DNA of 64,000 bases. Source: Lytechinus pictus (Eukaryota). The first letter of the stretch is position 1. Every line of letters begins with the position of its first letter. Below, piece after piece: positions 25,176 to 48,877 of the stretch. The translations under genes were made by a program, and so were the position numbers. Below the pieces are notes generated by a model. The model ran no database searches, had not been told where the DNA came from, and saw only the letters and a list, made by a program, of their open reading frames with translations. Where the stretch lies: the NCBI RefSeq assembly GCF_037042905.1, contig NC_087250.1, positions 19,408,001 to 19,472,000 on the forward strand. Reading direction: 5' to 3'.

Positions 25176-28100
25176 TCATTCGGTCTCATCTTGTGGTTCT
25201 TGGTTTAATTCTTTGGCTTGGTTTTCTTTGGCTTGGTTCTCTTTCGGTTGAGATCTACGTTTGGCCAACTTAATTTCGTTGCCAACTTTGTTCCGCATAA
25301 CGATGCGGATTTCCGATGATGACACTCCTGGGAACTTTGACTTGACATGACCTGCAAAGGAACACGTAAAAAACAAAAAAAAAAAGATTATAGTCAAGGT
25401 AGGTAAATGAGAATCATAGCACGACTTGGGTGCCAATGGCCACTTGAAATTTTATTTGGCCACTAGAAATAAGAAAGAAGCTCTGTATTAGCCACAAACT
25501 TGTTAGGTTCTACAACACACAAGTCTATGATCAAATATATTTAATGTGTTATGTTCACCTGTAAATAAAAAGCTAAGCACTAGCCCTGCATAGATTGGGC
25601 AGTGATATCTTTTTATAATAAGTAGGCTGATACGGGCTATTCCAGAGTCAAAGACATTACAAATATGAACTAGATGGATCTTCGATTGCGAACTATAAAA
25701 AATCCTGCTTCCGCTATCGCACAATTTAAAGGATGTAACTTGTACTTTGAATACAAAGCTATGAACAAGTTTATACACTACAAGTTTACAAACATTTGGC
25801 TCATCAAATGTTCAGCTATTTCATAAAATGTGTACCATCAGGATCCATTACATAATTTGCCCAAATATGTAATGTCCATGATGGCACACATTTTCCACTA
25901 TAAACGAACAATGAATGAAGAAAATATTATCAAATCAAAATTGCTGGTAGCTTTGTAATCTGAGTAAAAATTACATAATGGACGGGTACATCTGTCAGAA
26001 GTGATCATGATATTGGGAAACCCTGTTATAACGAGCTCGCTTATAATGAAGTACAGGTAACCCTGTTTTAACAAGGTGGTCGGGACCATCAAATTTACCT
26101 CGTTATATTAAGCGGTACTTCGTTATAAACGGCAGATTTAATAATACATATAAAACACAGATTTACGATCGGGACCAAAGGATTCCCCTCGTTATAAGCG
26201 AGTTCGTTATAACGGGGTTTCCCTGTACCGCTTATAACGAGGAGAATCCTTTGGTCCCAATTGTAAATGTGTTTCTATATGTGTTATTGAATCTGCCGTT
26301 TATAACGAGATACCGCTTATGACAAGGTAAAATCGATGGTCCCAAACACCTCGTTATAAGGGGCCGAGATTTCTTGTGGGGGGGGGGGTGCGGGCTATAG
26401 ACTAACCTGGCCTGGTGAGGACTAAATACTGTTAACAATATTGACAGTACACACTTAATGCAACAAATAAATGTTTCTGAAATATTTTGCCGATTTGCAA
26501 GCTCGAACCATCATATAATTAGAAATTGTTATCTTGTATACGAGCAGTAATCAATGTTAATCATGGTTATGTACAAATTTTCTTTTTGAATCTGGGCCAC
26601 TTAGTCGAACTAAAATATTTATACATGAAGTAATTACCTGTGGTCGTGCTGATGATGGCGAGGATTGGGTGGAGGACTGGGTGGAGGAACGAGCGGGCGA
26701 GGATGATGGACAGTGCATCTCTTCATGATCAGCCTGCCAATGAAAACGAAAATCCATATTTCATACCATCAAATATTTACCAAGATTTTACTGCAAAGTA
26801 GGTCAAGCAATCAAAGGAAACAAAAGCAAACAGAAAATAGCAAATAGCATAAGAGATTTGCATGCATGTTTCCTCCTCTAAAAAATGACTTCTAAATAGT
26901 TACTAATTCCCACTGATTCAGTTTTCATAGACCTATACAATATAACGATCCATCCAGAGTAATTCATCATAAACACAAATGCACGCTGGCCTGGAATCGC
27001 TTTGCCTAAAGGAGTGATCACACAGTCATGACTATACCCACAAATGCTGTACACATTTGCCTGCGGTATTAACCTGTACGATCGTAGTTCGCCATGTATC
27101 GACCATACCTACATATGCTCAATGCATACTGTATGCATATTTGCGAATGCCACAAGAATGCAGTGAGACAGCAGTAAATATGCGATACTCTTCCATCAAG
27201 AAAGAAGAACCAGTACGAGGGTTACACACTTGGTACAATTGCAGTAAGAATGTCATAGGTATTGTCCACCATTCTTACTGCAATCATACTGAGTTCGCAA
27301 GACATCGTACTGGTTCTTCTCCATTCTTGATGGAAGTGTTATCGGATTCTTACTGCTTTCTCATGGCATTGGCAAATATGTGAACAGTAGACATAGAGCA
27401 CTAGTTCGTACCACATGCATACAGCAAATTCGTGGGTATAGTCATGTCCAGTGTGACCACCCCTTAAGATTCACAACATACCTTGAGTCTCGACATCTCC
27501 TCCATATCCACTATGAACCCTTTAAAGGTTTCGATGAATTTAGGCACTCCTTGAACAAAAACAAAATAACATAGATATTTATTCATACCACTAAAAATTG
27601 AACTATTTAAAACTATGAAGGTATTATATGAAGAAAAATTTGCCAAACCGAAGCTGAATACTCTAGAATGGAGAAGAGAGCTGGAGATTTAATACAAACA
27701 TAAGATCATGACACAGATAAAAAAAAGTAGAAAACTTCTTTGAGAGATTGGGATACCTCAGAAAAAGAAGCCACTCCATGAATTTCACAAAGTTCAGAAG
27801 GCTTATACAGAGTTGTTAACATATGGAACAAGTCCCCTCATTCCAACTTTTTTTTTTACCAACTATTCAACATGAATTATTTAAATGGGCTCAAAAGGGC
27901 ACCATAAACTAAAGGTTTGTTTAACGAATATGTGAGGTATATGACTATGAGGTATTGTCCAAGCATTTGAATACTAAATAATGGGAGGAAATACTGTACC
28001 TTGCAAAAACAACAGCTGTTGCTGTATCTTTTCCCTAACTGCCTTCTCCTTAGTCAGCTTCACCTGCAGATCCTCAGTCTCTCTCCTTGATTTCTCCAAC

Positions 28101-31100
28101 TGCTTTTTCAGGTCAATTATCTCACCACTTGTTCCACTTCCCGTTGCCGTACGTCCATTTGATTTTTTCTGTCAGAATGATAACAAATCGGACACTAGTT
28201 AAAAAGTATGGTTTATGAATGTGAACCAGCGCAATTACCTCGTCATAACAGGATTTAGTTAATTTTGACCAATAACAAGGTTTCACTGTGAATTAGGATT
28301 TGTAAGATTTTACATGGCAATTAGCATACTTATCTAACTAAATATATTGACTTTGTACATTTATAATGTTTAATTACTTAGCTAAATATGTTCAATGAAA
28401 ATTTTAAAGGATTCATTCAAATGTGTTAAAATTGTAGCAATCAATAGGAGGGCAAGTCCAAGATAAGGTCCCCTGAGAAGACAAAATTTCATCTTTGCTC
28501 AACATTGAAATGTTTGGTGTCATTTTGAAGCATGATAGTTGAAATTTAAAATTCTGTGAAGGAATAAATTGTATCATGCAAATTTATGCAAATTTCAGTG
28601 ACTTAATTTGCATAAATTAGAAATGCTGTGTTACGTATGGGACAAATATAAAAAAATCATTATTATTTAAAGAGGAAGATCAGTAGTGGGCGAGAGGGCG
28701 TTGGAACCATTTAACTATTTTGGGAGCTGGAATGAAAATAACTAAAAATACTGAAGTAAGATCATTAATTTTAAACAAATGTCACGTTTATTTGATCAAA
28801 ATCGGTTCAGAAATGGCTGAAATATCAAAGAAAACATATTTACTTTTGTACGTGGCCCACGTACAAAAGTCGATAACGGCCGTGTGTATTGATATTTGAA
28901 TTTTACGAACGAATTTTCGCTCTTCGATGGATACAAGATCAACCTTTTTTCATTCATAAAATCACACAGAAGTAAAATTAGGTGTCCAAAATTCCACGAT
29001 AGTTCTTTAATGATGTTTTCTTTATATAAATACCCATTAACCTGATTTCAAATACATTTCGAGTTCCTAAACCACTACTGATCTACACCTTTAAAGGAAC
29101 ACAATTGAAATTTTATTAATATGTGGACCTAAGAGGTTCATCATCTATTTTAATTTGGTATGAAAATTTATGCACGACGCAATTAATTATGCAAATTAGG
29201 TCGCGTCCTATCAGCGATTGTCCCATACGTAACAAATTGAGGACATTTTTTTAGTTTATTTCTGAATTTGTAAAAGTTATTGCAGTGCTATTCTGGGAAG
29301 TTCTAATTTATTGTGTTAAGAAGTTAGATACTGGTTAGAAAGAAAAGAAATAACAATTAGACCCATTTTTAATTAGCAAATGAAATAATGTTACGTATGT
29401 GACAATGTGTTACGTATGGGACATCCCCATATATATTGCATGCGAATGTACATGCAGCAGGCATCAATAGTTTCTCAGTACATGAATGGTCAATGAGCCT
29501 GCAGCATGCATCCCAATCTTGCAGCCACTGTCTTGAGACAATACTAGACTGCTGCATTCTAAATGGGGAGAGGTAGGTAAAATAAATCAGCATGAAATGT
29601 GTAAAATATATTAATTTAGGTAGAGCATAATCCATACAGAAGTCATCACTTCATTTGAGAACAATCTGAATATGAAGGAGCACATTTGTTCTTCAAGAAA
29701 TGCAACAACATTAAGCCATCCAGAAGAACCTGATTCAGATTGAAAGAATGCTATAATTTGATTAAAAAATACCCTCTTATTTATTAATTTGTAAGAAAGG
29801 TGAAAATATATGACATTCAGACAGTTGCCATTACTGTCAGCCTCGGAATCATGAGGAAGAAAACAAGTCTTGCAAAACAAAGTTCAGCTTTGCTAATGAA
29901 CCAGAGACAGATTTTTTTTTTTTACCTCCACCAGTTACTACCAATCAAGAAATTCACATCTTTACAGAGGAAAGTGTAGCTACTGAGTAAGATAAATACA
30001 GTGAAGAGGGATAACAAAAAAAAAAAAGAACAAATTTTACAAAAATTATGTGATGATGCAGAAGATGCCCATAAAAAATAGCCTTTCAGAAAAGTTTTGT
30101 TAGAAACTGTGACAACATCAAGAATTTTAACTGTGTATTATTTCATATTGTGGCCCCCCTGTTCAAGATTAAATCTACAGGTAGTAAAGATGTATTTGAT
30201 AAAAGCAAGGGTGTGTATGCTTTCATTTTAGAAATCATGCAACTGTTTCATGGCATTTCATATTTAGGGAAAATACACTAATATAGACCAAGAACGGTGC
30301 ACGGTGGTTCATTATATTCGCACAGAATGATCATACTTGTTTGTAGATCTATAGCTGGTATTACTCAAGTGGTTCTTCTTGAACAATAGAAAAGGCATTT
30401 TCACACAGTTTAATTATACAACTTAAAAGCCCAGTGAATGTATAAAAATTGCCCCCACCCCCAAATAAAAAAAAAAAAAAAAATATCATCAAAACTTCTA
30501 TAATAATTAGCACTAGTAAATACATGTTCAAATCAGTTAGTGGTTGATTAGCAGCATGCCCGTATGAAACAAAATAGATAAAAATGAAAAATATAATCAA
30601 ATATGATTATGGTTGTAAATTTTATTGGAATTTCATTTTCCTGACAATTTGCAAACAAATCTGATTAATTACAGCTTATTTCACTTTGGTAACCAGACCA
30701 AAAATCCAATATACGCTTTCCACACACTAAACGAATAGGGGAAAAAATGTCCCATACGTAACACGTCATATCTGTCTTTAATCAGAGCCTGTACTTAGAG
30801 CTTTCTGCCTTTTTACATGAAATTTATCCTTGGTAAACTTGAGTGCTGTGACTTTTATCACAGTGAGTTTCAAGGTTTTAAATGAAATACTTTCTGAGCA
30901 ATTTCAACTTGAAAAAGAAATTAAAAAAATCTCTTTTCTTCTGGTCCCATACGTAACAGCACACATTTTCTCTTCTAAAATCTCATTGTCAAGGTCATTT
31001 CTCACAATTTTTTACATGAATACACTTCTCCTGGATATCAATCACCATGGTTAAATTCAATGCAATCAAAGTTCCTTTACACCATTTTTCTGGAAATAAA

Positions 31101-34100
31101 AGCCTCTGAAATGTCCCATACGTAACACGCGCGTTATCTTGGACTTGCCCAGGACTGAGCATTTAGTTAATTGTCATATAACAGTGATTTTAGGACACTT
31201 TGCATATGTGAACAAACTTATAGCTTACTATGCATCAACAGGTACCTTAGATTAATCACGCTTGCAAGTTGCAATTCCAAGGTGTTTAAATAGCTGCACA
31301 TACCGTTTCATTGGCACCAAACATTTGCTTCCTGAGATCCCTGGCCATCTCATTGCACTGTGAAATTTTTGATTTTGATTTCTGAAAAAGGAAAAGATAG
31401 AAGTAAAAACAATTTTATGATTTTTTTTAAATAGTACTGTTTAGCATCTTGGGAATTGTCTAGGCACACAAGTTACACAACCATTGGCGATTGCAGTTAC
31501 TTCATGAAGAAAAATTTAGCAATATGTAGACGCTTAGAACCATCTGTATTAAGCACCCAAGAAATTTAAAAAAAGAGCAAAAACATGTTATTCTGTTTCT
31601 ACAAATTGAAAACAAATATCCCTCCTTATACATTTTAACCAGAACATTTGTTTATAAATATGATTGAGCTGCATAATATTGAAACAAAGCCAACAATGTT
31701 ATTTCTGTAAACTGTAAAGGATTTATTGACTATGTTTGTTGATGAGTTTGTAAATGATAACTGGATAGAAAGATTTTGTTAATCTGTCAGTCATCAAAAA
31801 TTACTTCCAGTGTTGGGATATCATATGACACATGTACACACACCTTTGTTTCTTTTGGTTGAGGCTCCTCATCATCCGTCTCCAACTCCGAAGATGAATA
31901 CATGTATGTGCGTGTTGGTTTCTTCTTTCTCTTCCCTCTCCCAGTTTCCTTATCAGTCTCCATTGATTGCCCGTCACACATCTTGTTCCTTTTTCTGATG
32001 AGATTATCCTTGGATCCTTTAAACAATTTTGAAACAAATTAAAAAATTAACTATACAATTTCAAACAAACTCACTTGGAGCTTTCCCACTCCTCATTTGG
32101 TTTGGTTTATGGAAATAATTAATACAAAAATCACTTTTCAAATGTCTCCATAATCATGATAATTGCTTTAACATATCAGGGAGACCCCGAAAATTTTTTT
32201 TAACAGGCTAGGGCACTTCTAAAAAATAATCATGCACATAATCATGTTTATGTCAGATTGTCAATTTCTAGTACCTACCTCATCATTCATGCAGCTCGTC
32301 AGCGCCACACATACAGACATAACTCTGGGGCGATCCGAATCCACTCAAAAGTGAACAAAAAACTAAAAAAGTTCACATTTGTGCAGTTGGCCACGGGAGG
32401 GAAGTCTCGGAAGCCATTAAATGACTGAATTTGTGCCGAATGGAGGGGGAAATCCGATTCTTTTATGGAGGCACAGCAAAGCTAGCATATTGCGTCATAT
32501 TTTGGTGGTAATTAAGTATTGCATGATTTTATTATTTTAAAGCTGAATTCAGCTGCACAAATGTGAACTTTTTTTGTTCACTTTTGAGTGGATTCGGATC
32601 GCCACGCGCAGCGTGGCAATCCTCGGAGTTAACAGACATGTAACTCCGGGGATCGCTAGCGCGACAGCGCTAGTGATCCGGAGCCAAAAATGTCTAATGG
32701 GAGTAATGCGCAGCGAAAAACTGCTTTAAAATAATTTAAAAAAAAAAAAAAAAAAAAATCTGCTAGCGATGCCCGGAGTTAAATAACAGACATGTTGATA
32801 ATGCATGTGAGGCTTGGTCTTGGAAATTTACTAGTACTACGTGATCATGTGGTCAGTGCCACTGTTTACATCGCACTCACTGCAATATACCAACATCATG
32901 GCAATGTACGAACATCAGAACATAAATCACAGACAATGTTTATAATATAGAAGAGTAGCTAGTAGAACATTCAAATACAAAGTCAAATTCAGTTAACAAA
33001 AATAACGGTAAAGCCTAAAGGTCTACAATTGCACACCCCCCTGGCATTTCAAAAGTGTATGGCCGATTGAGATGAAATTTGCACAAATTGATGCTCTAAT
33101 AATGATTAATACATTACGATATCGGCATCGACATCCAATGCGATCGCAATGGAGAGTAGTTGTTGCCTCCGATCGTACAACCAATTGTGATCAATCCCAA
33201 ACAATAATAACGCTGATCATAACATGTGATAAACTTTTTTCCATTATGAATATAAATTATAAGGGAAAAAATAACAGAAAAAAATGTAAAAAGTCTTGTT
33301 AATGTTATCACACTCACAGCGTTATAATTGTTTGTGATCCATCACAATTGGTTGTACGATCGGAGGCAACAACTACTCTCCATCGGCATCGCAATCGCAG
33401 CCATTGCCATGTTGACACCGATAAGGCGATATCGTGAGTTCCCGCCTTCGAATTTCTTTGAAATTTTTGTCACATATCAATCATTATTAGTTAGACTTAG
33501 AGCATCAATTTGTGCAAATTTCAATCGGCCAAATATTTGTTGAAATGCCAGGGGGGTGTGCAATTGTAGACCTTTTTTTACCAAAATAACAATTTGAATC
33601 AATATAGATCTAATTAATAGTACATTGACTGTAGGTAGTGGTACAAGTCAATGGACCATGTCAATTGACTGTTAACCCATCAGTGCCTAAGGCTAAGCCC
33701 CGCATATTTGTGGGATGGTAGTGATATTTTAACGAATAATGGCCAACAAAATTTACGACAAATACGAGTTGCCAATTTGTAGAGGAAAACAATGATCAAT
33801 TTGGCCTTTAGCCTTTAGGCTTTAAATAGCTCTCGTCCTTGATGGGTTAATGAGTCACAAGTAGATCTAGTACTAACATACACAAGGTGTTTTACACATA
33901 TGACAAGAATATATAGGATTAGGAATGGTGGCAGTGAGTGAGCATGTCAACAATAATGTTACATTCCCATGGCCATGCACACGTTTGTCTTCGGCTTCGC
34001 AGACGCAGTTTCTTTTTGGAAGGTTTAGGCTAGATCTATTTGAAAGTCGATTTGAACTTGAAGAAAAATATGTAGGCCTACGTTAAATTCTTTAGACTTA

Positions 34101-34482
34101 AATATTGTATGACATCAGATGTGTTCATTATGAGATTGTGCAGCCGATCATATAATTTTCAATTTGATTTTATGCAGAGAATATGTATTTTTGACATTAT
34201 TCGTTGACATGTACGTCATTGTTAGTAATGCATGCATGATGCATGGGACTGAGTTGCATGGGTACACCGTACGGACTTACTATTTACAGCCAACACTGTT
34301 GCTCGATACTTCTCCGTTTTGCTGCCACTGACCCACATAACTTCAACAGCTTGATCGACATAGCTTTCAGGATCCACATCCTTGTCCGTGTCTAATATCC
34401 AAGAAAATGGTCCAATTTCGACGCTGTCATCGCTTTCAAATTCAAAAAGACAGAAGAACTCGTCTGAAGCTGGTGGCGGCAT
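25176..34482 (-). CDS. Spliced gene: BEND5-like N-terminal region, acidic/basic linker, coiled coil, Ser-rich linker and partial BEN domain (possibly internally deleted)
   Basis: Exons 34482-34281, 32016-31844, 31381-31304, 28168-28000, 27549-27482 and 26733-26638 have GT-AG boundaries and matching phases (1,0,0,1,0). They give 262 aa: MPPPASDEFFCLFEFESDDSVEIGPFSWIL...KYRATVLAVNRSKDNL...DLKKQLEKSRRETEDLQVKLTKEKAVREKIQQQLLFLQGVPKF...SSPSSARPQ. The last exon 25351-25176 reads HVKSKFPGVSSSEIRIVMRNKVGNEIKLAKRR, resembling BEN C-terminal helices (recognised by eye), but needs phase 1. Confidence 0.75.
26015..26365. repeat. Intronic MITE-like repeat with CTCGTTATAAC motifs
   Basis: Multiple GTTATAAC(G) motifs and an internal inverted duplication (GGGACCAAAGGATTC / GAATCCTTTGGTCCC). 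Confidence 0.6.
27019..27455. mobile_element. Intronic MITE with CAC...GTG termini
   Basis: CATGACTATACCCAC / GTGGGTATAGTCATG TIR and further internal inverted matches. Confidence 0.7.
28450..31150. mobile_element. Sola2-like non-autonomous element in intron 3 of the BEN-like gene
   Basis: 17-bp TIR GGGCAAGTCCAAGATAA, 4-bp TSD AGGA, repeated internal motif TGTCCCATACGTAACA. Sola2 inferred from GRG termini and 4-bp TSD. Confidence 0.75.
28671..29090. mobile_element. Kolobok-like MITE nested in the Sola2-like element
   Basis: TTAA-AGAGGAAGATCAGTAGTGG ... CCACTACTGATCTACACCT-TTAA. Confidence 0.75.
33018..33574. mobile_element. Intronic palindromic MITE
   Basis: ~80-bp TIR AAGGTCTACAATTGCACACCCCCCTGGCATTTCAA... 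plus inner inverted repeats. Confidence 0.8.
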
Positions 34483-34499
34483 AGTGAAGCTGAGATCTT

Positions 34500-34640
34500 G
34501 AATGAAAAATAGACGATCGCGCGCGCCTTTCTACGATCCAATAAAAAAGGTGCACGCGCGTCACGTGATTTTTCGAGATACGCGCATGCGTCCTTCAGGT
34601 GATCACGATTGTCAAACAATCGCGTACATATTACATCGCA
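34500..34640 (-). promoter_or_regulatory. Putative CpG-rich promoter of the BEN-like gene
   Basis: Local CpG enrichment just upstream of ATG 34482, with an E-box GTCACGTGAT (~34560) and an NRF1-like GCGCATGCG (~34582). Confidence 0.5.
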
Positions 34641-35007
34641 TGATTTTACTGTTCAATGTCCATATTGCATGTAAAGATTAATTAGCCTATATAAATTTGT
34701 GTACAAATCCTGTGGGAATTGTTTTTTTTTTCAAAGAATAGTCAAAACCCTCATTATTTTTCTTTTTCATCACTGCAATCATTTGATTTGGGGCTAAAAG
34801 TTGTTGAATAATGTTCAATATTTTTTCCATAAAAAGAAAAACAAAAAAAATATAATATCAAACAAATACATAAGAAATTAAAAACCAAGAAATACATGAG
34901 GAATTTGTTGGCTATCACAATTTGTAATGTTAAAAACCAGTTTATTTAGTAAAAATGGATGTTGATACAGATAATAAGCATATTCTGAGCCATATTTAGT
35001 GATTAGG

Positions 35008-35437
35008 AGTACCACGGTAGTACCACGGTAGTACCACGATAGTACCACGGTTCTACAAGTACTTCAATTGTACCGCGGTACTATTGCAAGAGTACCACGG
35101 TAGTACCACGATAGTACCACGGTTCTACAAGTACTTCAATTGTACTGCGGTACTACTGCATAAGTACCACGGAAGTACCACGGTAGTACCACGATAGTAC
35201 CACGGTTCTACAAGTACTTCAATTGTACTGCGGTACTACTGCATAAGTACCACGGTAGTACCACGATAGTACCACGGTTCTACAAGTACTTCAATTGTAC
35301 TGCGGTACTACTGCATAAGTACCACGGTAGTACCGCGGTAGTACCGCGGTATACTACAAGTACTTCAATTGTACCGCAGTAGTACTGTGGTAGTACCGCA
35401 GTAGTACCGCGGTAATCGCAGTACTTTTTTACAAGGG
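35008..35437. repeat. Right subterminal array (AGTACCACGGT units within a larger ~65-76-bp repeat)
   Basis: Repeated gtaccacggtag and ctacaagtacttcaattgtactgcggtac blocks up to the TIR. Confidence 0.95.
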
Positions 35438-38400
35438 CTTAACTGGTCCAGTAAAGTGAACTCGACCAGTTAGACCAGTATGCCGTTTTTCCATTTTCCA
35501 GAATTACATTCTGTGAACTGGTTTTTCCTTCTTAATTGGCTGACATTAATTTGCAATTTTACTATACCATTGACATAACGCATGTCCCCGGTCTTCGGTC
35601 TTCGTTTTCCAAACCTGTTGTTGGGTGTCTGGAAAACGAAGACAGAAGACCGGGGATCGCGTCAATTCGTCTAGCTAAGATAGGCCTATAATATTCAGCA
35701 CCAGTTCAAGAATATTCTGATCTTGGATACGTCATCAGCTATGATTGGCTGCGGATAAGTTATGGTTATTTGTGTGAATATATATGCAGCTAGGGCATGA
35801 TAATAAGGATAACGTACATATTTCACCCACGGAATTCAGCCATTGCAATTCTGAAAACTGTCATGAAACTGAAAACTTGCATACAATACACCTCATACTG
35901 CGCAATCACGTACTTGTAAGCAGACTCAACTCAACTGGCGTTTGCAGTGCAACTATATTTTACTACCATTGACATTACGCATGTCCCCGGTCTTCGGTCT
36001 TCGTTTTCCAAACCTGTTGTTGGGTGTCTGGAAAACGAAGACCGAAGACCGGGGATCGCATTCGTTTAGCTAAGATACCACTTATAAATGTCATTATGAA
36101 GGCCTCTATTATTCAGCTCAAATTCAAGAATATTCTGATCTAGAATACATTAATGTCATTAATTGGCTGATAATGAAGTCATGTTAATTGCTTGTGTCAA
36201 TAATTAGTATAAGTAGACCAGTTGAAGCGGGATAGGTCTCCCAGTTTACACCACTATTCCACTGAGACAAGTAACAAACTCCAGTAATCAATCAGACCAG
36301 TTTCAAATTTCCAGTTAAAGGTTAACTCTAGACCAGTAATTTCAGACCAGTTTAATTCTTAACTGGTCCAGTAAAATGAACTCGACCAGTTAGACCAGTA
36401 TGCCGTTTTTCCATTTTCCAGAATTACATTCTGTGAACTGGTTTTTCCTTCTTAATTGGCTGACATTAATTTGCAATTTTACTATACCATTGACATAACG
36501 CATGTCCCCGGTCTTCGGTCTTCGTTTTCCAAACCTGTTGTTGGGTGTCTGGAAAACGAAGACAGAAGACCGGGGATCGCGTCAATTCGTCTAGCTAAGA
36601 TAGGCCTATAATATTCAGCACCAGTTCAAGAATATTCTGATCTTGGATACGTCATCAGCTATGATTGGCTGCGGATAAGTTATGGTTATTTGTGTGAATA
36701 TATATCAGCTAGGGCATGATATTAAGGATAACGTACATATTTCACCCACGGAATTCAGCCATTGCAATTCTGAAAACTGTCATGAAACTGAAAACTTGCA
36801 TACAATACACCTCATACTGTGCAATCACGTACTTGTAAGCAGACTCAACTCAACTGGCGTTTGCAGTGCAACTATATTTTACTACCATTGACATTACGCA
36901 TGTCCCCGGTCTTCGGTCTTCGTTTTCCAAACCTGTTGTTGGGTGTCTGGAAAACGAAGACAGAAGACCGGGGATTGCGTATTCGTCTAGCTAAGATAGG
37001 CCTATAATATTCAGCCCCAGTTTAAGAATATTCTGATCTTGGATACGTCATCAGCTATGATTGGCTTTGGATAAGTTATGGTTATTTGTGTGAATATCGT
37101 TATCAGCTAGGGCATGATATTAAGGATAACGTACATATTTCACCCACGGAATTCAGCCATTGCAATTCTGAAAACTGTCATGAAACTGAAAACTTGCATA
37201 CAATACACCTCATACTGCGCAATCACGTACTTGTAAGCAGACTCAACTCAACTGGCGTTTGCAGTGCAACTATATTTTACTACCATTGACATTACGCATG
37301 TCCCCGGTCTTCGGTCTTCGTTTTCCAAACCTGTTGTTGGGTGTCTGGAAAACGAAGACCGAAGACCGGGGATCGCATTCGTTTAGCTAAGATACCACTT
37401 ATAAATGTCATTATGAAGGCCTCTATTATTCAGCTCAAATTCAAGAATATTCTGATCTAGAATACATTAATGTCATTAATTGGCTGATAATGAAGTCATG
37501 TTAATTGCTTGTGTCAATAATTAGTATAAGTAGACCAGTTGAAGCGGGATAGGTCTCCCAGTTTACACCACTATTCCACTGAGACAAGTAACAAACTCCA
37601 GTAATCAATCAGACCAGTTTCAAATTTCCAGTTAAAGGTTAACTCTAGACCAGTAATTTCAGACCAGTTTAATTCTTAACTGGTCCAGTAAAGTGAACTC
37701 GACCAGTTAGACCAGTATGCCGTTTTTCCATTTTCCAGAATTACATTCTGTGAACTGGTTTTTCCTTCTTAATTGGCTGACATTAATTTGCAATTTTACT
37801 ATACCATTGACATAACGCATGTCCCCGGTCTTCGGTCTTCGTTTTCCAAACCTGTTGTTGGGTGTCTGGAAAACGAAGACAGAAGACCGGGGATCGCGTC
37901 AATTCGTCTAGCTAAGATAGGCCTATAATATTCAGCACCAGTTCAAGAATATTCTGATCTTGGATACGTCATCAGCTATGATTGGCTGCGGATAAGTTAT
38001 GGTTATTTGTGTGAATATATATCAGCTAGGGCATGATATTAAGGATAACGTACATATTTCACCCACGGAATTCAGCCATTGCAATTCTGAAAACTGTCAT
38101 GAAACTGAAAACTTGCATACAATACACCTCATACTGCGCAATCACGTACTTGTAAGCAGACTCAACTCAACTGGCGTTTGCAGTGCAACTATATTTTACT
38201 ACCATTGACATTACGCATGTCCCCGGTCTTCGGTCTTCGTTTTCCAAACCTGTTGTTGGGTGTCTGGAAAACGAAGACAGAAGACCGGGGATTGCGTATT
38301 CGTCTAGCTAAGATAGGCCTATAATATTCAGCTCCAGTTTAAGAATATTCTGATCTTGGATACGTCATCAGCTATGATTGGCTTTGGATAAGTTATGGTT

Positions 38401-39467
38401 ATTTGTGTGAATATCGTTATCAGCTAGGGCATGATATTAAGGATAACGTACATATTTCACCCACGGAATTCAGCCATTGCAATTCTGAAAACTGTCATGA
38501 AACTGAAAACTTGCATACAATACACCTCATACTGCGCAATCACGTACACTTTTTTGTAAGCAGACTCAACTCAACTGGCGTTTGCAGTGCAACTATATTT
38601 TACTACCATTGACATTACGCATGTCCCCGGTCTTCGGTCTTCGTTTTCCAAACCTGTTGTTGGGTGTCTGGAAAACGAAGACAGAAGACCGGGGATTGCG
38701 TATTCGTCTAGCTAAGATAGGCCTATAATATTCAGCACCAGTTCAAGAATATTCTGATCTTGGATACGTCATCAGTTATTGATTGGCTTTGGATAAGTTA
38801 TGGTTATTTGTGTGAATATCGTTATCAGCTAGGGCATGATATTAAGGATAACGTACATATTTCACCCACGGAATTCAGCCATTGCAATTCCGAAAACTGT
38901 CATAAAACTGAAAACTTGCATACAATACACCTCATACTGCGCAATCACGTACATGCAGACTCAACTCAACTGGCGTTTGCAACTATTTTACTTCCATTGA
39001 CATTACGCATGTCCCCGGTCTTCGGTCTTCGTTTTCCAAACCTGTTGTTGGGTGTCTGGAAAACGAAGACAGAAGACCGGGGATTGCGTATTCGTCTAGC
39101 TAAGATAGGCCTATAATATTCAGCTCCAGTTTAAGAATATTCTGATCTTGGATACGTCATCATATGATTGGCTGCGGATAAGTTATGGTTATTTGTGTGA
39201 ATATCGTTATCAGCTAGGGCATGATATTAAGGATAACGTACATATTTCACCCACGGAATTCAGCCATTGCAATTCTGAAAACTGTCATGAAACTGAAAAC
39301 TTGCATACAATACACCCCATACTGCCCAATCACGTACAAGCAGACTCAACTCAACTGGCGTTTGCAACTATTTTACTACCATTGACATTACGCATGTCCC
39401 CGGTCTTCGGTCTTCGTTTTCCAAACCTGTTGTTGGGTGTCTGGAAAACGAAGACAGGAGACCGGGG
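35438..39467 (+). repeat. Tandem array of ~400-bp (A) and ~521-bp (B) units, each with a 70-bp hairpin
   Basis: Hairpin CCCCGGTCTTCGGTCTTCGTTTTCCA-N18-TGGAAAACGAAGACMGAAGACCGGGG starts at 35586, 35985, 36506, 36904, 37302, 37823, 38221, 38625, 39013 and 39398. The array begins at 20889-21445, before the 14-kb insertion. Confidence 0.95.
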
Positions 39468-39680
39468 ATTTCATTTGTCAAGCTTATTTCCACATATAGC
39501 GTGCTATGGACACGTTTCCGTGCAATTGTACTTCGTTTTCTTCATGCTGGCTGATAAACAGACCTTAAAACAACCGATATACGTGGATACAATATTCCAT
39601 GAAATTGTCATATCGTTTTTAAAGAAAACAAATTTTCAAACTGAAAAAATGCATGCAATTAATAGATGCTTACATAGAAT

Positions 39681-40932
39681 CAGGGGCGTAGCAGCGTTCG
39701 GTGGCCAGGGGAGGGGGGGGGGGACGAGAGCCAGAAAATTCCCGGTCATTATCATCAGTGGCGTAATTAAGAAAAACGGGAAAAAGATAAAAGGGAGGGA
39801 GAAAGAAAGAAAGGGAAATGGGGAAGGAAATGTGAAAAGGAAAGGAGGAAAAGGAAAGGGAAAATTGAAAAGAAAACGAAGAAAAAAACTTTTTTTGGAA
39901 TGGAAAAGAAAGGAAAGCGGGAAAATATACGAAAGAAGAACATTTGAGAAAGAACACATCATTCCGAAATAGGCCTATGTAATGCAATAGCACGGTGGGA
40001 AATAATTTAAAAGATAACAAAATGGTATGAAGAGCGGGAAACGAAGGTAGAACGTAATTAATCAAAAGCTAAATTGGAAAAAAATACAAGGGAAAAAGGG
40101 ACAAGAAAAAAATAATAACACGACCGGGCTGCCGATGATTGAAAAGAGCGGGAAGAAAGATGGTCTGCATACAACATTGTGTTATAAGCTTGCTAGATTT
40201 TATGCAAATAAGCTACCGGGCCTTTGTCCCAGACCCCACGCAGTATGGGCTCTTCAGCATTTATAACCTTCAAATGGCTATATACCTACCCCCGTTCAAC
40301 AATGTTCAATCAATGGCATACAGGCGGGGGGGGGGGGGTGTTCCACACCCAAGAGGGAAAAAAAGAAATTATAGGAGACAAAGTATAATGAAATGAATGG
40401 ACAATGAAATGTGTTATTTGCTGAATATAATGGAAAATATATCACATAATTAGAATTTAATTTCAATAGGCAATTTTTTTCCAGCTCGCTTTGCACGCTA
40501 GCGAATTTTTACAATTTTTTCCCACGTTGGTATGCTTTGCCCTATAAATATTTGGTTCATTACGCAACTGGGTTGAATAAATGTGTTGTGTAAAAGCTAT
40601 AGTCTATGTAGAATGCGATTTGATTAAAATAGCGGCAATCTGCGAGGTTTAAATGGCTTTGATATCAAGGTGTTTTCAGGGGGCTCCGCCCCGGACCCCA
40701 ACCGCACATCACTGCGTATGGAAGTGTTGGGCCATTGGCCCAAAAAGTTGTACAAACAAAAACACAAAAAAAGCAGAGGAAAAGTGTAGGATATGATTTT
40801 ATTTACTGAATATAATGTCAAAAAATAGCTCAAAGTTAGATTCTCATGAAAAGGTGATTTTTTTTCTCGCTCGCTTCGCTCGGGACTTATATAAAACAGC
40901 TTTCTTTAGCACATGTGGTATACTCCACCCCT

Positions 40933-40967
<35 letters not shown>

Positions 40968-41294
40968 CTTCACGTTACAGCCGCAAAGAATCCTGTTCAC
41001 AGTGCGCGTACAGACGACAAAAAAGGAATCCAAAGAGAGAAGAGTGAAATATCATTCTCTGGACATCATGTCAAAATCTATCACAAAATTGGATTTTTGT
41101 ATTAAAAAGGTCAAAATTTTTGCTCGCTCGCATTTTTTAAAAGATAAATTCTGTCCGATGCACAATATCTGGCCTTCTCAAAATAGTGTCGGCTCATTAC
41201 GCCTGTTTATACCATATAATGTGACCAGGAAATATTTGGCTCTTGCCCGCCCCCCCCCCCCCGCCCCTGGCCACCGACCCCTGTTACGCCGCTG
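39681..41294. mobile_element. hAT-like non-autonomous element
   Basis: CAGGGGCGTAGCAG...CTGTTACGCCGCTG termini; flanks CATAGAAT/CATATCAT (6/8 match). Confidence 0.6.
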
Positions 41295-41508
41295 CATATC
41301 ATGGTGTGAAGAGCGGTCTGTCCCCTGGATAGGAACATCGGCAGTGGTTGGGCGATATCTTGAAGTTCACTAATTTGTGTCCCCTTATGATTGCGGCTAG
41401 TTGCGTACGTGAAATCAAAATAGGCTATTATATACACGTCATACCCACACACCAGCCGAGTCTTTCTTACCGTTCTTTATTTTCAACCTCGGTATCCCGG
41501 TTGTGTTC

Positions 41509-42819
41509 CAGTGGCGTAGCTAGGATTTTTTTCCTGGGGGGCACTGGGGGTCCTTGCTTTGAGTCAGGGGGGCACCATTTTTATCCGGTGTGTACTTGTC
41601 ACAAGGGCCCGAAATTATCTTCACTTATATTTTTCCCGATCAGTCACTTCTTCGTTATATTCTTATAAAACAGCACAAACATGAAATAATCTAATAAGCA
41701 TTATAAAAAGTGCGAGCGCGAAGCGCGAGCGATTTTTTTTTATTTGTTACTTTCATGTAATATTCTGGGCAATGTTATGTGTGATCCCGATCAGGATTCG
41801 AATGTAACTAGATGGTTACTGCGAACGCCAAGCGCGAGCAGAAATTTTTATTAACTGTTCTAGCATTATCGAAAAGGGACCTGTTAAGTGCACTTATATA
41901 GGTACCCACGAAGATGGTATATATTTTTATAATGCAATTTTTTTGACATTCCGACCTAAAAGAATGGTAATTCTAAGCACTTTTTGTATCAATAAATGGG
42001 ATAGGTATGTAACGAAACAATGGATGCGAGCGCGAAGCACGAGAGGAAAAAATTTGAGATTTTAGACCTAAAAGCGGGACACTATTCATATTTTGTAAAT
42101 CATAAATAGGATATAGTTAATTGGGTATCATTAATTATGCTATCGTAAAGCGCGAGCAGACAATTATTTATATTCTGATGTGAAACTGGATAATTCAAGT
42201 AGATTTTAAATAAAGAACATGCATGCTATCGCGCATGTTTTAGATTTAGACCTATAATCTGGGCATTCTGAATATATTTCTTTAATGGAACATTATGGAA
42301 TACATGTAGACAATAGGAACTTGGCAAATCAATCAATGTGACCACGCAGCGTGAGCTTTAAAAAAAAATGGTGATATGTAGACAATAAAACGGACATTTT
42401 ACAGAGCACTTAAATTTGTAAATGAAAAAAATATTGAAAGCTCGATGTCCGAGCTAATTATGTTTTGTATAATGACTTCAAAACTTGCTCCATATCAGCC
42501 TATTGAGCAAGATATGAATCTCATCGAACAGTCAATTCTGGCGCGAAGCGCAAGCAAAGATTTTTTATAGTAACATGAAAGAATTGTTTCTTTTTTGGCA
42601 AGTCTTCCCCTCACATTATTTCATTCATTCGTCTCCCTCCTCTTATTTTCCTCTTCTTTTTTCTTCTGTCTTTCTTCTTCTTTTTATTTTCTTCTTTCTC
42701 CCTTTTTTTTTTGCTCTACCAATTTTTTTCCAGGCGGGACACCTGATGGGGGCACACCAAATCCCAGGGGGGGGGGCTCCCAGCCCCCCCCCCCCCCCCC
42801 GTAGCTACGCCACTAGCTG
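41509..42819. mobile_element. hAT-like non-autonomous element
   Basis: CAGTGGCGTAGCTA TIR (small insertion at right end), 8-bp TSD TTGTGTTC, internal GCGAGCGCGAAGCGCGAGC motifs. Confidence 0.75.
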
Positions 42820-45408
42820 TTGTGTTCTTAATTTCTTTCTTTCCCCCTCTTGTTTTTTCTGTTTTCTATTCCGATTTCATGTTAGCATTTTCGCATCCCG
42901 TTTATTTTGGCCTCTCTTCCTTCCCTTTCCCGCCTAAAATTTCCGTTCCACTTTGCCATCTCTTTATTCCTAACCCCTTTCTCACTTGTTTATTAGTAGG
43001 CCCTATTTCAGGATGATTAGATTTGTTTGATCATTCCAATTATTGGCCCTTTTCCTTTCTCCTTTCTTCCTTCTCTTTCTCATTGTTTGTCTCACCCGCA
43101 AGAGGTGAAAGCGAGACTAAGAGATCCAAATGTCGTCCGCCCGTCGATTCCCAAAGAGGGTAAGCCGATTCTGCGGTGCAAGATAGACCAAAAGCCAATT
43201 CTGCATCGGCTTTTGGTTCTGAACCAAAAGCCGATGCACGTGTAAACAGGGTAATTTTCTTCCAAACGCGTACTGAATTGTTGCTCTCGAAATGTACGCG
43301 TGGGAACGTCTCGGGTTTAACCGCAAAGTAGTATACAAGCGACGCACTTGTGTTTCATGTGCGCCGACCGTATAGAAAACATCGCATACCGGCAACAGCA
43401 TTCTACAAAGGCACGCTTGCCACCTGTCTTAGGTCGATGACATTGCTTTCTATTACAATTAGGTTTATTTTATACGGAGCCTTTAAAGGGATGGTCCGGG
43501 CTGAAAGCATGTATAGCTTAATGAATAGAGTAAAATTCACTGAGCAAAATACCGAAAATTTCATCAAAATCGGATAACAAAGTTATTGAATTTTAAAATT
43601 TAGCAATATTTTGTGAATACAGTCGTCATGAATATTCATTAGGTTGGCTGATGATGTCACATCTCCACTTGTTCTTTTGTATTTTATTATATGAAATTAG
43701 GTTTATTCAAATGTTTTCATCCAAGAACAAAAAAGTAGAAAAATTGGATTGGCAACTGATTTAGTGCATTAAATATTTATTGCTGCAACTTATTTCATTA
43801 TAAGGGAGACATATTATTAGCACAAATATGAAATAATGTAAAAATTATGATTATATATAATTAACATAGGGAAACTGAGAGTGGAGATGTGACATCATCA
43901 GCTCACCTAATGAATATTCACGACGATCTGTTTTAACAATATATTGCTAAACTTTAAACTTCAATAACTGTTTACTTGTTATCCGATTGATGAAATTTTC
44001 GGCACATTGCTCAGTGACCCTGATAGCAGAAACTGGTAAAAATGACGTCATAATTACGTCAGTTTAACGACGAGTGTCACGTCATTTTGACGTCGTAACA
44101 TGACGTCTTATTGACGGGATCTTGCACCCGCGAATAACGTCATTATGACGTCGTATATTGACGTCATTATGACGTCTCCAAGAGTGACTACGACGTCTTA
44201 ATGACGTCTTAGCAACGTTTTTACAACGTTTTCCTGACCAGTATCAAGGGTCAGATTGACGTCGTGTATTGACGTGATTATGACGTCTTCGAGAGTCAAC
44301 AACGACGTCTTAATGACATCCGTGTAACGTGTTCCTGACCGGTTTTAGACGTCATATTGATGTAATTATAACGTCTTTAAAAGTCATCTACGACGTCTCA
44401 ATGACAACTTTGCGACGTATTCCTGACCAGTTTTAGACGTCATATTGATGTAATTATGACGTGTTTATAAGTCAACTACGACGTCTGAATGACGACTTTG
44501 CAACATATTGCTGACTAGTAATAGACGTCATATTGACGTCACATATTGAAATGAATATGACGTCTTTTGGAGTCAACTATGATATCTTAACGTATTCTGA
44601 CGTGATAATGACCTAAACATTAAATTCTACATGCAATGTACATACACACATCACTTCAAAGACCTTGTCATTGAGGATTATCTATATTTGGTGAATACTG
44701 AGGTGGTCTGACAATGTCCAGCATTCCCAGTAACAATATAATGATCCTCCATGCCAGGGCCTTGCATAACTTGTCTCGGTCTCAAGAACATGACCCCCCC
44801 CCCCGAAAAAGAATATATACAAAAATGGAAAACGAAATCAAATACATGTACGCATTTCAATTACGAAATCGTGGCAAATATTCTATTAATAAATAAAAGT
44901 TGCATAACATATTACCAGCAAAAAAAAAAGGAATACAAAATGTTGAAAACTCTAAATAGATTGAAAAAAAAAACACTTTTCTATGAAAATGCAGTATTAG
45001 GGTCAAAGGAATGAAATTACAATGTCTGTTATACCAATACATACAATTGTACATGTATAAATACACATTAATACATAACAGAGGCATAATGATCTCCAAG
45101 AATAAAGCTTTTTCGTTGAAATTGTAATTAAATATACCTTCAACTTTAGACAACTATGTAATGTAGGTAAAAATAGACTGTATGTAAAAAAAAAATACCC
45201 GAGTTGGAATAGTTTCAGGATTTATGGAAGCTCGCATTTGGGTGAAAGAATCATACATGTACATTAATTCTAATGAAATGTTTGGGTTGTATTACACTAT
45301 CACTTAGGGCCAGGGGTAAAAGACAGTAGTTGCAGCAAACAATTATTTCTTCGGAAAGTCTTTTAAATTAAGGTTAATTGTCAAAATATTGTACATAATC
45401 TAGATCTG

Positions 45409-45682
45409 GGCCCTGTCTTACAAAGAGTTACGATTGATCCGATCAATCATAACTCTATGGAAATCCATCAGTGTCATAATTTTTTCTACGAAAAAATTGC
45501 ACAATGTCCTTTGTATGCAAAGAGAAGCGCAGCGAATTTTTGAGAAAACAATGAATGCATGAACATACATCATAGCTAGAAAATATTTTGAACAAACATG
45601 CTTAATAGATCTATGTTAACGTTGCTGACCGTCCATAGTTGCGATTGATCGGATCAATCATAACTCTTTGTAAGACGGGGCC
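45409..45682. mobile_element. PIF/Harbinger-like MITE
   Basis: ~45-bp TIR GGCCCYGTCTTACAAAGAGTTA, 3-bp TSD CTG; empty site in the duplicated segment at ~46250. Confidence 0.8.
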
Positions 45683-46792
45683 CTGGTAAATTAATGTAAA
45701 CTTGTATCTTTGTAAAATCATGAATTTTGATCTTAAAATCAATAATTCTGATGATCACTAACACAGAAAAGCATATGTGGGACAGGACAGTGTATTATGA
45801 TTGATTTGAAAAATACCCGACATTTGATAGAATTACATGCTTATTTTGCTCATTTCTCAGCAATTACACACATTTTCTTCCCAAGCTTTTTGGCACACAT
45901 CTTTTATATATACATACACTTTGCTGGTAATTCTGTTGGATTCTGTTCGAACTCATTTTAAGATAGTTACTACTAGAGGTGCGCTATTAACTTAAGGCAA
46001 CTATGCAATGTAGGACAAAATATACTGTATGTAAAAAAAAAAAAAACCTGAGTTGCAAAGTTTTCAGGATTTATGGAAGCTTGCATTTGGGTGAAAGAAT
46101 CATGCATCAATAAGTCTGATGAAAATAGTTTGTGGAACTGTTGTATTACACTATCACTTAGAAGGAAAAGACAGTAGTTGCAGCAAACAATTATTTCTTG
46201 AGAAAATCTATAAAATCAAAGTTCATTGTCAATATATTGTACATAATCTACATCTGGTACATTAATGTAAACTTGTATCTTTGTAAAATCATGAATTTTT
46301 AAACTTAAAATCGATAATTCTGATGATCGCTGTAAACACAGAAAAGCATATGTGGGACAGTGTATTATAATCGATTCGAAAAATACCTGACATTTGAAAG
46401 AATTACATGCTTATTTTGCTAATTTCTCAGCAATTACGCATTTTCTTCCCTACATGTAGCTACGTAGGCTTTTTATGTGAGCTGAGAGATTTCATACCAG
46501 ATTTCCTTTGCTTGATGAAGTTCTTTAATATGATAGTCTGTGTATCAGCATAGCATGTGTTCAGTGTTTTGAACCCACTGGAAATTGTGCATCATATCTT
46601 TATGTATGGAAGTCATTTTGCGTCTGCGGTCTCCATGGTTTTTTCAGGATCTATGTGTTGACTAGACCAGTCCCATATTGATATTTTCGTGCTGTGTCAC
46701 TTTGGAAGGCCGTCTCTAATTGGTTGACATGGTGAGTTGGCAGATGCACAGCCCATCCCACTTTTCAATTATATCATTACGTAATCTCTAAC

Positions 46793-47410
46793 ATGTCTAA
46801 GATATCCACCAGATCAAGAGGCCGCTTGCACTCGGCTAATGCATGTACACAATCCTCTGCTTCATCATTAACTGGATCTAAACAAAGCCCAGCATACCTA
46901 GATCATATTGATACAGTCGTTCAAAGAGCGGTGGCCGTGGCAATGGAACGCGAGAGACAAAAACTCAATGATGACATGGATAAGCGCGAAAATAAATTGC
47001 GTGAAATTCTTGATGAAAAGCTCACTAGTCTACACGTTCTTGAAATATCTATCGATACTAAATTGAAGCAACTCCGTGATTTTGAAAAATCGGTTTCTGA
47101 TAACATGACTAACACCATAATGCTTTGTCAAATAGGCTTGACCACATCGAGCAGTACTCCTGTCGCAATAATATCCGTATCCGTATGAGATTGTTCGAAA
47201 TGTAGCAAAGCAGATTGGTATCGATCTTACTCCATGTGACATTGATCGATCCCATCACCTTTGCCGACCAACTAGCAGTCATGATGTTCAACCCAAAGGA
47301 TCATACCCCGGCGTGGCCCTGTAATGCCAACTTAGCAGCTCCACCAATCAATGTGAAATTCACTTCATACAGGCCGAAACAAACGATGATGAAAAATAGA
47401 GGAAAATGAA
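46793..47410 (+). pseudogene. Frameshifted LINE ORF1-like remnant (L1 ORF1/Transposase_22-type coiled coil + RRM)
   Basis: Coiled-coil ORF 46793-47188. After frameshifts: NRLDHIEQYSCRNNIRIR, VAKQIGIDLTPCDIDRSHHL and PPINVKFTSYRPK, matching the LEQYSRRNN / IDRSHR / PIIVKF motifs of this family. Confidence 0.75.
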
Positions 47411-48589
47411 AATGCTCAGGAACAGATGACTGGGTGCAGGCAGGCAAGGCAGTTCAGGTGGGATGAAAATTTATGGGCAGGACACCTTCCGTTCAAATTA
47501 CAGCATCTGCAAAAATAACAGAAGAGGAGAAACATAAAAACTTTTTCTACATAAACTATTTATTAATCTTCATTAAAAACTAGATGGTTTCAATATTAAT
47601 TTCCAATTTATTTTAAATGATTAAAAAACGATGTGGGGTTTGTTACATATTTTATACTTCAAATATTAACATGTTAAGTCAAGTCGGGGGGGGGGGGGGC
47701 ATGATGCCCTCAAGACCTTTAACCATCTCTGTATAAGGAAGGGAATTTTAGAATCAATTTATTTGACACATAAAACATATTCTTTTTTTATAATTACAAT
47801 TTTAATTCATGCCTTTTTTATGTGTTTTAAATGGTTATGGGGTAACCAGGACTGTCAGGACCGAGAATTCGAACTTCGAGGCTGAAATACAGCCATTCCC
47901 TATGCCTGATTTGGCTTAAATTCAGGTCAAGGATCAATTAAATATATATTTTGAAAAAAAAATCTGACAAATTTTGAGGTGGAATTAGTTTTCTGGCATC
48001 GCGAGATCGACCAATGCAAAATTTTATTAGCGCCAATTTACCATCTAAACTTGTCATTGAAATTAGAACGTCCAAACCGATCTAGTACCAGTACTAGCAC
48101 AATCATGACAATGAATCAATCAGCTATGCATGTGCACCAATTCTGTATTTCTTGCATACGTACGTCACTCGAGTTAAAGTTCATGTCATTGCGTTATATA
48201 GCATGGGAATTGTAAGAAAGTGATCCTTCAAAATTTTTACCTTCCAACAATTAACATTTTTTAAGCCTTTGTATGCATTTAGAGTACAAAAGCTTACAAA
48301 TTGGACAAATTAAATGTTTGCCCCAAAATTATTGTGGGAAGGGTGGATTTTCTAGGGAAATCCATCTTAGTGTACAAAGTTCTACAGGCAACAGAGACTT
48401 GTCTAGGCTCCGTGAATGAAAATACAATGAAAAAATATCACAGAGTCCTCGAAGTACAGTCAGGACCATTAACAGATTAAAAGGTGCCCCGAGTTTGTGC
48501 ACACCCAAATCTGCGTGATTCTGATAATAGAGATTCCCAATGATCCCCCCCCCAAAAAAAAAGGCTTTACATCTGAAATAGCCTTCTAA

Positions 48590-48780: not shown

Positions 48781-48877
48781 GAAATGTCAAACAGATCTAT
48801 TCATTAAAAATCTTACTCATAATGGTGCTTTTGGTAGAAAAATAATGAATATAGGGCATTTCATGTGACGCCCTTAA

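What the first reader, a model, noticed from the sequence alone, without database searches (positions are those of the whole stretch)
35586..39467. Regularly spaced 70-bp hairpins with alternating spacer types
A conserved hairpin (26-bp arms, 18-nt loop) recurs 20 times in the window. Spacers fall into three classes: A ~330 bp, B ~450 bp and C ~150 bp. On this arm the order is C,B,A,B,A,A,B,A,A,A,A, including a 1317-bp BAA higher-order repeat. The hairpin is almost invariant while A and B are clearly diverged homologues. This suggests the hairpin is the constrained unit or a recombination point (cruciform, protein site or small-RNA precursor; inference).
Basis: partly seen in the sequence, partly recalled or inferred. 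Interest (0 to 1): 0.7.

Follow-up and report, generated by a model that had tools for sequence, protein, structure and literature searches.

The report
Foldback transposon with hairpin-jointed modular arms
The evenly spaced hairpins are back-to-back copies of a jumping element's own end, repeated inside the two mirror-image arms of one gene-less transposon, which makes this an unusual version of a known kind of element rather than a new RNA or satellite system.

Summary
The hairpins, spacer classes and BAA repeat are real. They lie in the left arm of one 34,442-bp foldback transposon (20889-55330); the minus-strand array at 51776-55330 is its right arm. It has a 10-bp target duplication, confirmed against the other arm of the older palindrome it landed in. 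Each hairpin is a truncated inward-facing copy of the element's end, 11 nt of linker, and a complete outward-facing end. The same end bounds dispersed elements with 9-10-bp duplications in metagenome contigs; one related family also carries internal palindromes of the motif, with 8 instead of 22 nt between the cores. The hairpin varies less than A spacers (2 of 70 against 34 of 307 sites, p=0.035), with no compensatory change, and 17 of 20 copies carry a stem mismatch. Sequence is conserved rather than pairing. Most likely these are extra transposase-binding sites of a Mutator-like element (inferred; no transposase found). The scan noted this architecture before in this genome (e1-7787382), and that note led me to test the foldback reading.

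The parts
20889..55330 (.). Whole non-autonomous foldback element F, 34,442 bp including nested insertions
   Evidence: Matching inverted termini, 10-bp TSD and gap-free empty-site test; outer ~255 bp of the two arms 248 identities, 3 mismatches, 8 gap positions
20879..20888 (+). Left target-site duplication CACCATTAAC
55331..55340 (+). Right target-site duplication CACCATTAAC
   Evidence: comparison with the host's other arm is gap-free only when 10 nt are dropped (0, 8, 9, 11, 12 leave gaps)
20889..20921 (+). Left terminus, 33 nt, equal to the last 7 loop bases plus the right arm of the hairpin
55291..55330 (-). Right terminus, 40 nt (one extra 7-nt subrepeat)
20922..21070 (+). Module C spacer, outermost in the left arm (right-arm copy 55143-55290, 146 of 148 aligned positions identical)
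21071..21140 (+). First hairpin of the left arm
21141..21445 (+). 5' part of the first B spacer; its 3' part resumes at 35438-35585
   Evidence: The two parts together match intact B units at 518-519 of ~521 positions
21446..35437 (.). Nested 13,992-bp CACTA/EnSpm-like insertion, CCC...GGG ends, 2-bp TSD CT, subterminal GTAC-rich repeats
35586..39467 (+). The finding: 10 hairpins with spacers A,B,A,A,B,A,A,A,A. Each hairpin = 26-nt inward end copy lacking the last 7 terminal bases + 11-nt linker + intact 33-nt outward end
35985..38624 (+). BAA higher-order repeat, two copies (1317 and 1323 bp)
39468..39680 (+). Module D, truncated, a strongly diverged homologue of A
   Evidence: 1 of 1000 shuffles scores as high
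39681..51775 (.). Interior of F, mostly nested elements (39681-41294; about 41510-42816; about 43487-51624, itself holding a CCC-ended element 44018-51570 with TSD GA). No transposase found
   Evidence: Pfam on open frames
51776..55330 (-). Right arm: terminus, C, 9 hairpins, 8 full A spacers and a truncated ninth; no B
19524..20888 (.). Older palindromic host element into which F inserted; its right arm continues at 55341-56178
   Evidence: Outer arms 824 identities, 18 mismatches, 9 gap positions

Best explanation
The array is part of the long terminal inverted repeat of a gene-less foldback DNA transposon, probably Mutator-like (MULE). Shown: two inverted arms, identical ends, a 10-bp target duplication, and hairpins made of an inward end copy missing its last 7 bases, an 11-nt linker and a complete outward end. 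Inferred origin: two short elements of the family came to lie tail-to-head; a deletion of about 6 nt across the junction destroyed the inward end, so modules could no longer leave singly; unequal exchange then multiplied the module and its interior diverged into A, B, C and D. Inferred function: each junction gives two extra binding sites for the transposase, supplied in trans, which helps the element's ends pair and move. The junction stays uniform through that constraint and because it is the one long stretch shared by all module types and so is exchanged among all of them.
For: TSD and empty-site test. The terminus matches 8 of 9 end bases plus the core motif of dispersed elements in 6 of 32 metagenome loci; 7 of 32 loci hold both ends (4 distinct sites) with TSD 10/10, 9/10, 8/9 and none. 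A related 837-bp element (L030) has modular arms with internal palindromes of the same core motif; 4 of 33 loci show such palindromes. The position-59 variant follows the downstream spacer type (C before B in 3 of 3, A before A or D in 17 of 17) and the position-13 variant follows an upstream C (2 of 2), so the halves belong to neighbouring modules. Hairpin 2 of 70 against spacer 34 of 307 variable gap-free columns, p=0.035; none of 248 70-column spacer windows has 2 or fewer. In DNA run X5 depth falls from 73,624 at the terminus to 1.6 two bins outside it. Papers: MULE TSDs are 8-10 bp and more subterminal repeats raise Muta1 binding and excision (PMC5499845, passages); deletions across tandem junctions are common (PMC5932611, passages).
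Against: No transposase was found in the window (12 and 67 open frames) or in 43 frames near related ends, so superfamily and binding are inferred. Internal outward ends are complete, yet both arms start at module C; in tomato multi-TIR MULEs the internal TIR start is more diverged (PMC3310237, passages). The 11-nt linker is invariant in 20 of 20 copies though it is not part of the end motif. Core-to-core spacing differs between families (22 against 8 nt), which argues against a fixed binding geometry. The conservation test is modest, uses related copies from one locus, and counts sites, not events. The four loci with internal palindromes come from one assembly, so they are one observation. 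One two-ended site (L024/L026) has no TSD.
Confidence: 0.65

Rival explanations
1. Same foldback anatomy, but the junction has no function: it is uniform only because it is the one long homology shared by all module types and is homogenised by conversion and unequal exchange.
For: The linker is as invariant as the motif. A-B similarity fades with distance from the junction. Exchange inside A spacers is frequent, 60 of 190 site pairs. The spacing between cores is not kept between families.
Against: Within A units alone, where hairpin and spacer have similar numbers of donors, the hairpin is still less variable (p=0.035). A related family also keeps internal motif palindromes.
Confidence: 0.2
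2. The junctions are active cut or exchange sites: the transposase (or a site-specific recombinase) cuts at the complete internal ends and shuffles modules like cassettes.
For: All 20 junctions keep a complete outward end. The missing B in the right arm maps to an exchange between hairpin positions 13 and 59. Further spacer variants appear as loose ends in run X5.
Against: Spacers are partly homologous and non-coding, not a library of unrelated cassettes. Exchange also occurs within spacers. One mapped exchange in a 45-bp identical stretch needs no special enzyme. No recombinase gene was found.
Confidence: 0.08
3. The hairpin is kept as a structure: a cruciform or a small-RNA precursor.
For: It folds strongly as DNA (z -10.1) and RNA (-49 to -55 kcal/mol) at pre-miRNA size. 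In RNA run X23, 20 of 8.7 million reads were laid; those over the array (depth 1-5) all have the first mate on one strand.
Against: 0 of 26 pairs show a change on both sides; 17 of 20 copies carry a fixed mismatch; the loop is invariant; no Rfam family matches the array. Any pair of inverted ends folds, so folding is no evidence of function.
Confidence: 0.05
4. Two independent satellite arrays that happen to lie in opposite orientation.
For: The arms differ in content (B only on the left) and the right arm is cut short at 51776.
Against: Both begin with the same terminus and module C, and they are bounded by one 10-bp duplication that restores the host palindrome without a gap.
Confidence: 0.02

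Closest known systems
Tetris, foldback transposon of Drosophila virilis (PMC4079207; passages read)
   Same: [quoted passage not shown]
   Different: In the passages read, TIR-220 units are one homogeneous type sharing a 37-bp stretch at ~80% with the flanking domain. Here four diverged module types are joined by a near-invariant palindrome containing a complete copy of the terminus.
Multiple-TIR MULEs of tomato, Arabidopsis, rice and maize (PMC3310237; passages and section 3.1 read)
   Same: Extra internal TIR copies at both ends, conserved relative to the interior, mostly non-autonomous.
   Different: Those have two pairs of TIRs at most, mostly in tandem orientation, and the internal TIR start is more diverged. 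Here there are 9-11 internal junctions per arm, each an inverted pair, with intact outward ends.
Muta1 of Aedes aegypti, a foldback-type animal MULE (PMC5499845; passages read)
   Same: 8-9-bp TSD, terminus beginning GGGT, repeated motifs in the TIR that increase transposase binding and excision.
   Different: Autonomous, with a 145-bp TIR of nine 12-bp direct repeats. No sequence homology to F was tested or is claimed.
Galileo (P superfamily; PMC3688188, abstract only) and Tm1 (Phantom/Mutator; PMC3169594, passages)
   Same: Long internally repetitive TIRs; in Galileo the internal repeats hold further transposase-binding sites.
   Different: Foldback shape does not fix the superfamily. Their repeats are not described, in what I read, as abutted inverted ends.
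Tandem transposon dimers and arrays, hobo and Bari1 (PMC5932611; passages read)
   Same: Head-to-tail junctions, often with a deletion removing TIR sequence, copied identically through an array.
   Different: Those arrays are free-standing; here the arrays are the arms of a larger element that moved as one piece.
Sea-urchin TU elements and Drosophila FB (recalled; TU and FB are only cited in PMC4079207)
   Same: Foldback elements with repeat-rich arms.
   Different: Not compared by sequence; the primary papers were not read.

Membership tests
Foldback transposon (structural class) | Long terminal inverted repeats | tested here: met
   Arms of 4.6 kb (net of the insertion) and 3.6 kb in inverted orientation
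Foldback transposon (structural class) | Arms built of internal tandem repeats, number differing between arms | tested here: met
   11 against 9 hairpins
Foldback transposon (structural class) | Target-site duplication at the outer ends | tested here: met
   10 bp, with empty-site control
Mutator/MULE superfamily | TSD of 8-10 bp | tested here: met
   10 bp here; 10/10, 9/10 and 8/9 at 3 of 4 two-ended sites with related ends; range from PMC5499845
Mutator/MULE superfamily | Long TIRs (>100 bp) | tested here: met
Mutator/MULE superfamily | MULE DDE transposase in an autonomous member with the same ends | not testable with these tools
   No genome held; no transposase in 12 and 67 window frames or 43 frames near related ends. 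Membership is therefore probable, not shown.
Solo MITE (hairpin as the element) | Hairpin arms are the element's outer ends and are flanked by a TSD | tested here: not met
   The terminus lies in the loop, facing outward; flanks are constant spacer ends, not duplications
Structured small-RNA precursor | Covariation preserving the stem | tested here: inconclusive
   0 of 26 pairs changed on both sides, 3 depart only by unpaired cells, 22 never vary; only 6 distinct sequences
Structured small-RNA precursor | Discrete small-RNA products | not testable with these tools
   Only a long-RNA library was laid (X23)
Integron-like cassette array | Unrelated cassettes and a dedicated recombinase | tested here: not met
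   A, B and D share homology; no recombinase hit

The most novel reading that the evidence does not exclude
The junction is an evolved switch. The truncated inward copy binds transposase next to each complete internal end and usually blocks cutting there, so only the outermost ends move the element; occasional cutting at an internal end drives gain, loss and reshuffling of modules. If so, a widespread animal transposon family has repeatedly turned abutted ends into a self-editing modular arm.
Probability: 0.12. Interest if true: 0.7.

Novelty: new variant of a known kind. Interest (0 to 1): 0.36.

Why it matters
It explains the pattern as transposon-end anatomy and removes the need for a cruciform or small-RNA reading. 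It shows a route from short elements to long foldback arms and satellite-like arrays, through a damaged tail-to-head junction, with the same plan and a different spacing in a related family. It also poses a clean test: 20 complete internal ends are present, yet the element moved from its outermost ends. Finding what prevents internal cutting would bear on how foldback transposases choose ends.

Tried and rejected
No whole genome is held, so genome-wide copy counts and the search for an autonomous partner were not possible. Two pattern scans of viral contigs gave 0 matches. One scan of prokaryote genomes gave 1 match, in a Halobacillus genome, with no second end in the 140 nt printed; treated as chance. 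Rfam gave one tRNA outside the arrays (ARAGORN). Pfam gave no transposase and only sub-threshold hits. My first reading, a tandem array of independent MITEs with a copy-specific adjacent deletion, was dropped when the two arrays proved to share one TSD. Spacer ends are not detectably inverted repeats of each other beyond the hairpin arms (A 684, B 30, C 1000 of 1000 shuffles as high). In one search, 0 of 32 loci had an inverted arm just outside the matched end; internal palindromes showed up only in the wider tests. In one search I left out 8 of 32 loci that looked bacterial or unrelated (L004, L011, L017, L021, L022, L028, L029, L031); searches used all loci. One search used frames from 16 loci, after also dropping 4 duplicates of other loci. 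Run search: no RNA holder on record; the best share of words was 0.34. In one search no listed difference falls in the hairpin, but 84 rows and 178 loose ends were not shown and a known variant of this copy is also missing, so I draw nothing from that. Contigs ending at 55330 in X1 and X2 can be explained by a k-mer merge and are not used as evidence of the terminus. Depths are not copy numbers. Look-ups of earlier findings by sequence, relatives and words returned nothing. Paper searches listed no description of this family or of arms jointed by abutted ends; older sea-urchin papers are outside the library, and no supplements were read.

Full report
Setting. The window is AT-rich, repeat-dense and without long open frames. 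No whole genome is held. Earlier notes on the same genome call it a sea urchin; I did not test that.

The observation. A 70-nt hairpin with 26-nt arms and an 18-nt loop occurs 20 times, 11 on the + strand and 9 on the - strand. A 14-nt arm motif has 43 matches against 0.54 expected, and the hairpin folds with z = -10.1. Spacers are A (315-334), B (451) and C (148-149). The stated order is right when counted from 20922 across a 13,992-bp insertion that splits the first B. The two parts of that B match intact B units at 518-519 of about 521 positions, and the insertion has CCC...GGG ends and a 2-bp duplication. The BAA repeat is 1317/1323 bp with 3 mismatches. A and B share their first 134/162 nt (104 of 130 positions) and their last ~30 nt; their middles do not align above chance (194 of 1000 shuffles). 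D, after the last hairpin, is a diverged A (1 of 1000); C shares only a short end motif with A (4 of 1000).

What the hairpin is. Two half-hairpins exist, at 20889 and 55330. Each consists of the last 7 loop bases plus the right arm. A scan of metagenome contigs with the arm motif returned 32 loci. In most, the motif sits 9 nt inside a G-rich end; 6 of 32 share 8 of the 9 end bases with the window. Seven of 32 loci hold both ends of an element (4 distinct sites), with duplications of 10/10, 9/10, 8/9 and none. So the transposon terminus lies in the loop and faces outward. Each hairpin is an inward end copy lacking its last 7 bases, 11 nt of linker and a complete 33-nt outward end. Variants confirm that the halves belong to different modules: position 59 follows the downstream spacer (C before B in 3 of 3, A otherwise in 17 of 17) and position 13 follows an upstream C (2 of 2).

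What the arrays are. They are. The ends at 20889 and 55330 are inverted copies, flanked by the same 10 bp. The element landed in one arm of an older palindrome, which gives an internal control: that arm matches the other without a gap only when 10 nt are dropped (107 of 110 identical; 0, 8, 9, 11 and 12 leave gaps). The outer ~255 bp of F's arms differ by 3 substitutions, the host arms by 18 in about 840, consistent with F being younger, though the numbers are small. The interior is mostly nested elements. Pfam found no transposase in 12 and 67 window frames or in 43 frames near related ends. I could not check whether e1-7787382 is the same family; sequence look-ups returned nothing.

Related architecture elsewhere. 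L030 holds an 837-bp element with a 10-bp duplication whose arms contain loop-less palindromes of the same core motif, 141 bp apart. Such palindromes occur in 4 of 33 loci, with 8 nt between the cores against 22 in the window. All four come from one assembly, so this is one observation. Two intact ends around a 10-bp duplication would leave 28 nt between the cores (9+10+9); 22 and 8 fit separate deletions of 6 and 20 nt. That is inference. Deletions across tandem junctions are reported as common for hobo and Bari1 (PMC5932611, passages).

Public runs. Twenty of 24 listed runs, under three organism codes, hold part of the stretch; the best share is 0.34. Four were laid on 54754-55980. In X5 summed depth is 991,327 in the hairpin bin, 128,643-214,567 over C, 2,538-160,542 over A, 73,624 at the terminus and 1.6 two bins beyond. 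These are not copy numbers, but they place the edge of the repeated unit at the terminus and show C and the hairpin to be abundant. A-to-A joints appear in X2 and X5, a B-type end in X2, and further spacer variants in X5. RNA run X23 gave 20 reads of 8.7 million read; those over the array have depth 1-5 and one orientation. This is a trace in a long-RNA library and says nothing about small RNA.

Conservation. Among 15 A units, 2 of 70 hairpin columns vary against 34 of 307 gap-free spacer columns (Fisher p=0.035); none of 248 70-column spacer windows has 2 or fewer (minimum 5). Mean pairwise difference is 0.004 against 0.035. The copies are related and come from one locus, so the test is modest. 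Pairing is not what is kept: no pair of 26 changes on both sides (only 6 distinct sequences), 17 of 20 copies carry a mismatch, and the loop is invariant. Rfam has no match in the arrays. The missing B in the right arm maps to an exchange between hairpin positions 13 and 59, but exchange inside spacers is also common (60 of 190 site pairs), so the hairpin is not shown to be a special recombination site.

How it most likely works. Shown: a non-coding element moved as one piece from its outermost ends and left a 10-bp duplication. Inferred: the enzyme is a MULE transposase acting in trans (TSD 8-10 bp, long TIRs; PMC5499845, passages); the arms grew by unequal exchange from a module whose inward end was damaged; each junction adds binding sites, as internal repeats do for Muta1 and Galileo (PMC3688188, abstract). 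I put the anatomy at about 0.9, the MULE assignment at about 0.7 and the full account at 0.65. Unexplained: the internal outward ends are complete, yet both arms begin at C; and the linker is invariant. A blocking role for the inward copy would explain the first; it is untested.

Comparison and verdict. It works like Tetris (PMC4079207, passages) and the multiple-TIR MULEs of plants (PMC3310237, passages and section 3.1), and meets the structural tests for a foldback element. MULE membership lacks the defining transposase. Eight paper searches listed no account of arms jointed by abutted ends with several module types; a review was searched for passages without finding one (PMC12628747); older sea-urchin papers are outside the library. 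Earlier notes list several other foldback elements with repeat arms in this genome (not checked). Verdict: a new variant of a known kind, interest 0.36.

Noticed in passing
   Followed up: partly
window 44018-51570 and 56179-57987: A CCC-ended element with TSD GA inside F; an inverted copy of its right ~1.8 kb (96.5% identical over 1652 columns) starts at 56179, outside F, cutting the host's right arm. Either a second insertion or a rearrangement.
   Followed up: partly
window 19352-20888 and 55341-56178: Older palindromic host element with 42-bp subrepeats near its outer end; its arms differ by about 2-4%.
   Followed up: partly
window 59252-64000: Tandem repeat of 1416-1418 bp, over 99% identical, running off the window; internally repetitive and unrelated to F.
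   Followed up: no
window 23278-23351 (-): tRNA-Ala (AGC) called by ARAGORN and Rfam, lying inside the 14-kb nested element.
   Followed up: no
window 51974-52373 against 36904-38624: The innermost full A unit of the right arm is closer to left-arm units (distance 9-11) than to its neighbours (13-22), suggesting exchange between the arms.
   Followed up: partly
window 52374-53977: The right arm has its own higher-order repeat, a dimer of two A variants (796 identities, 5 mismatches, 2 gap positions).
   Followed up: yes
L030:1887-2723; L008, L009, L015: An 837-bp element with 10-bp TSD and modular arms jointed by 38-bp loop-less palindromes of the same core motif, 141 bp apart.
   Followed up: yes
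window 46736-47188 (+): 150-aa open frame with a coiled-coil-like stretch resembling non-LTR retrotransposon ORF1 (recalled resemblance); no Pfam hit.
   Followed up: no
window 10368-17011: Another long inverted pair (10368-11553 against 15103-17011) with 160-194-bp AT-rich tandem units, possibly a further foldback element.
   Followed up: no
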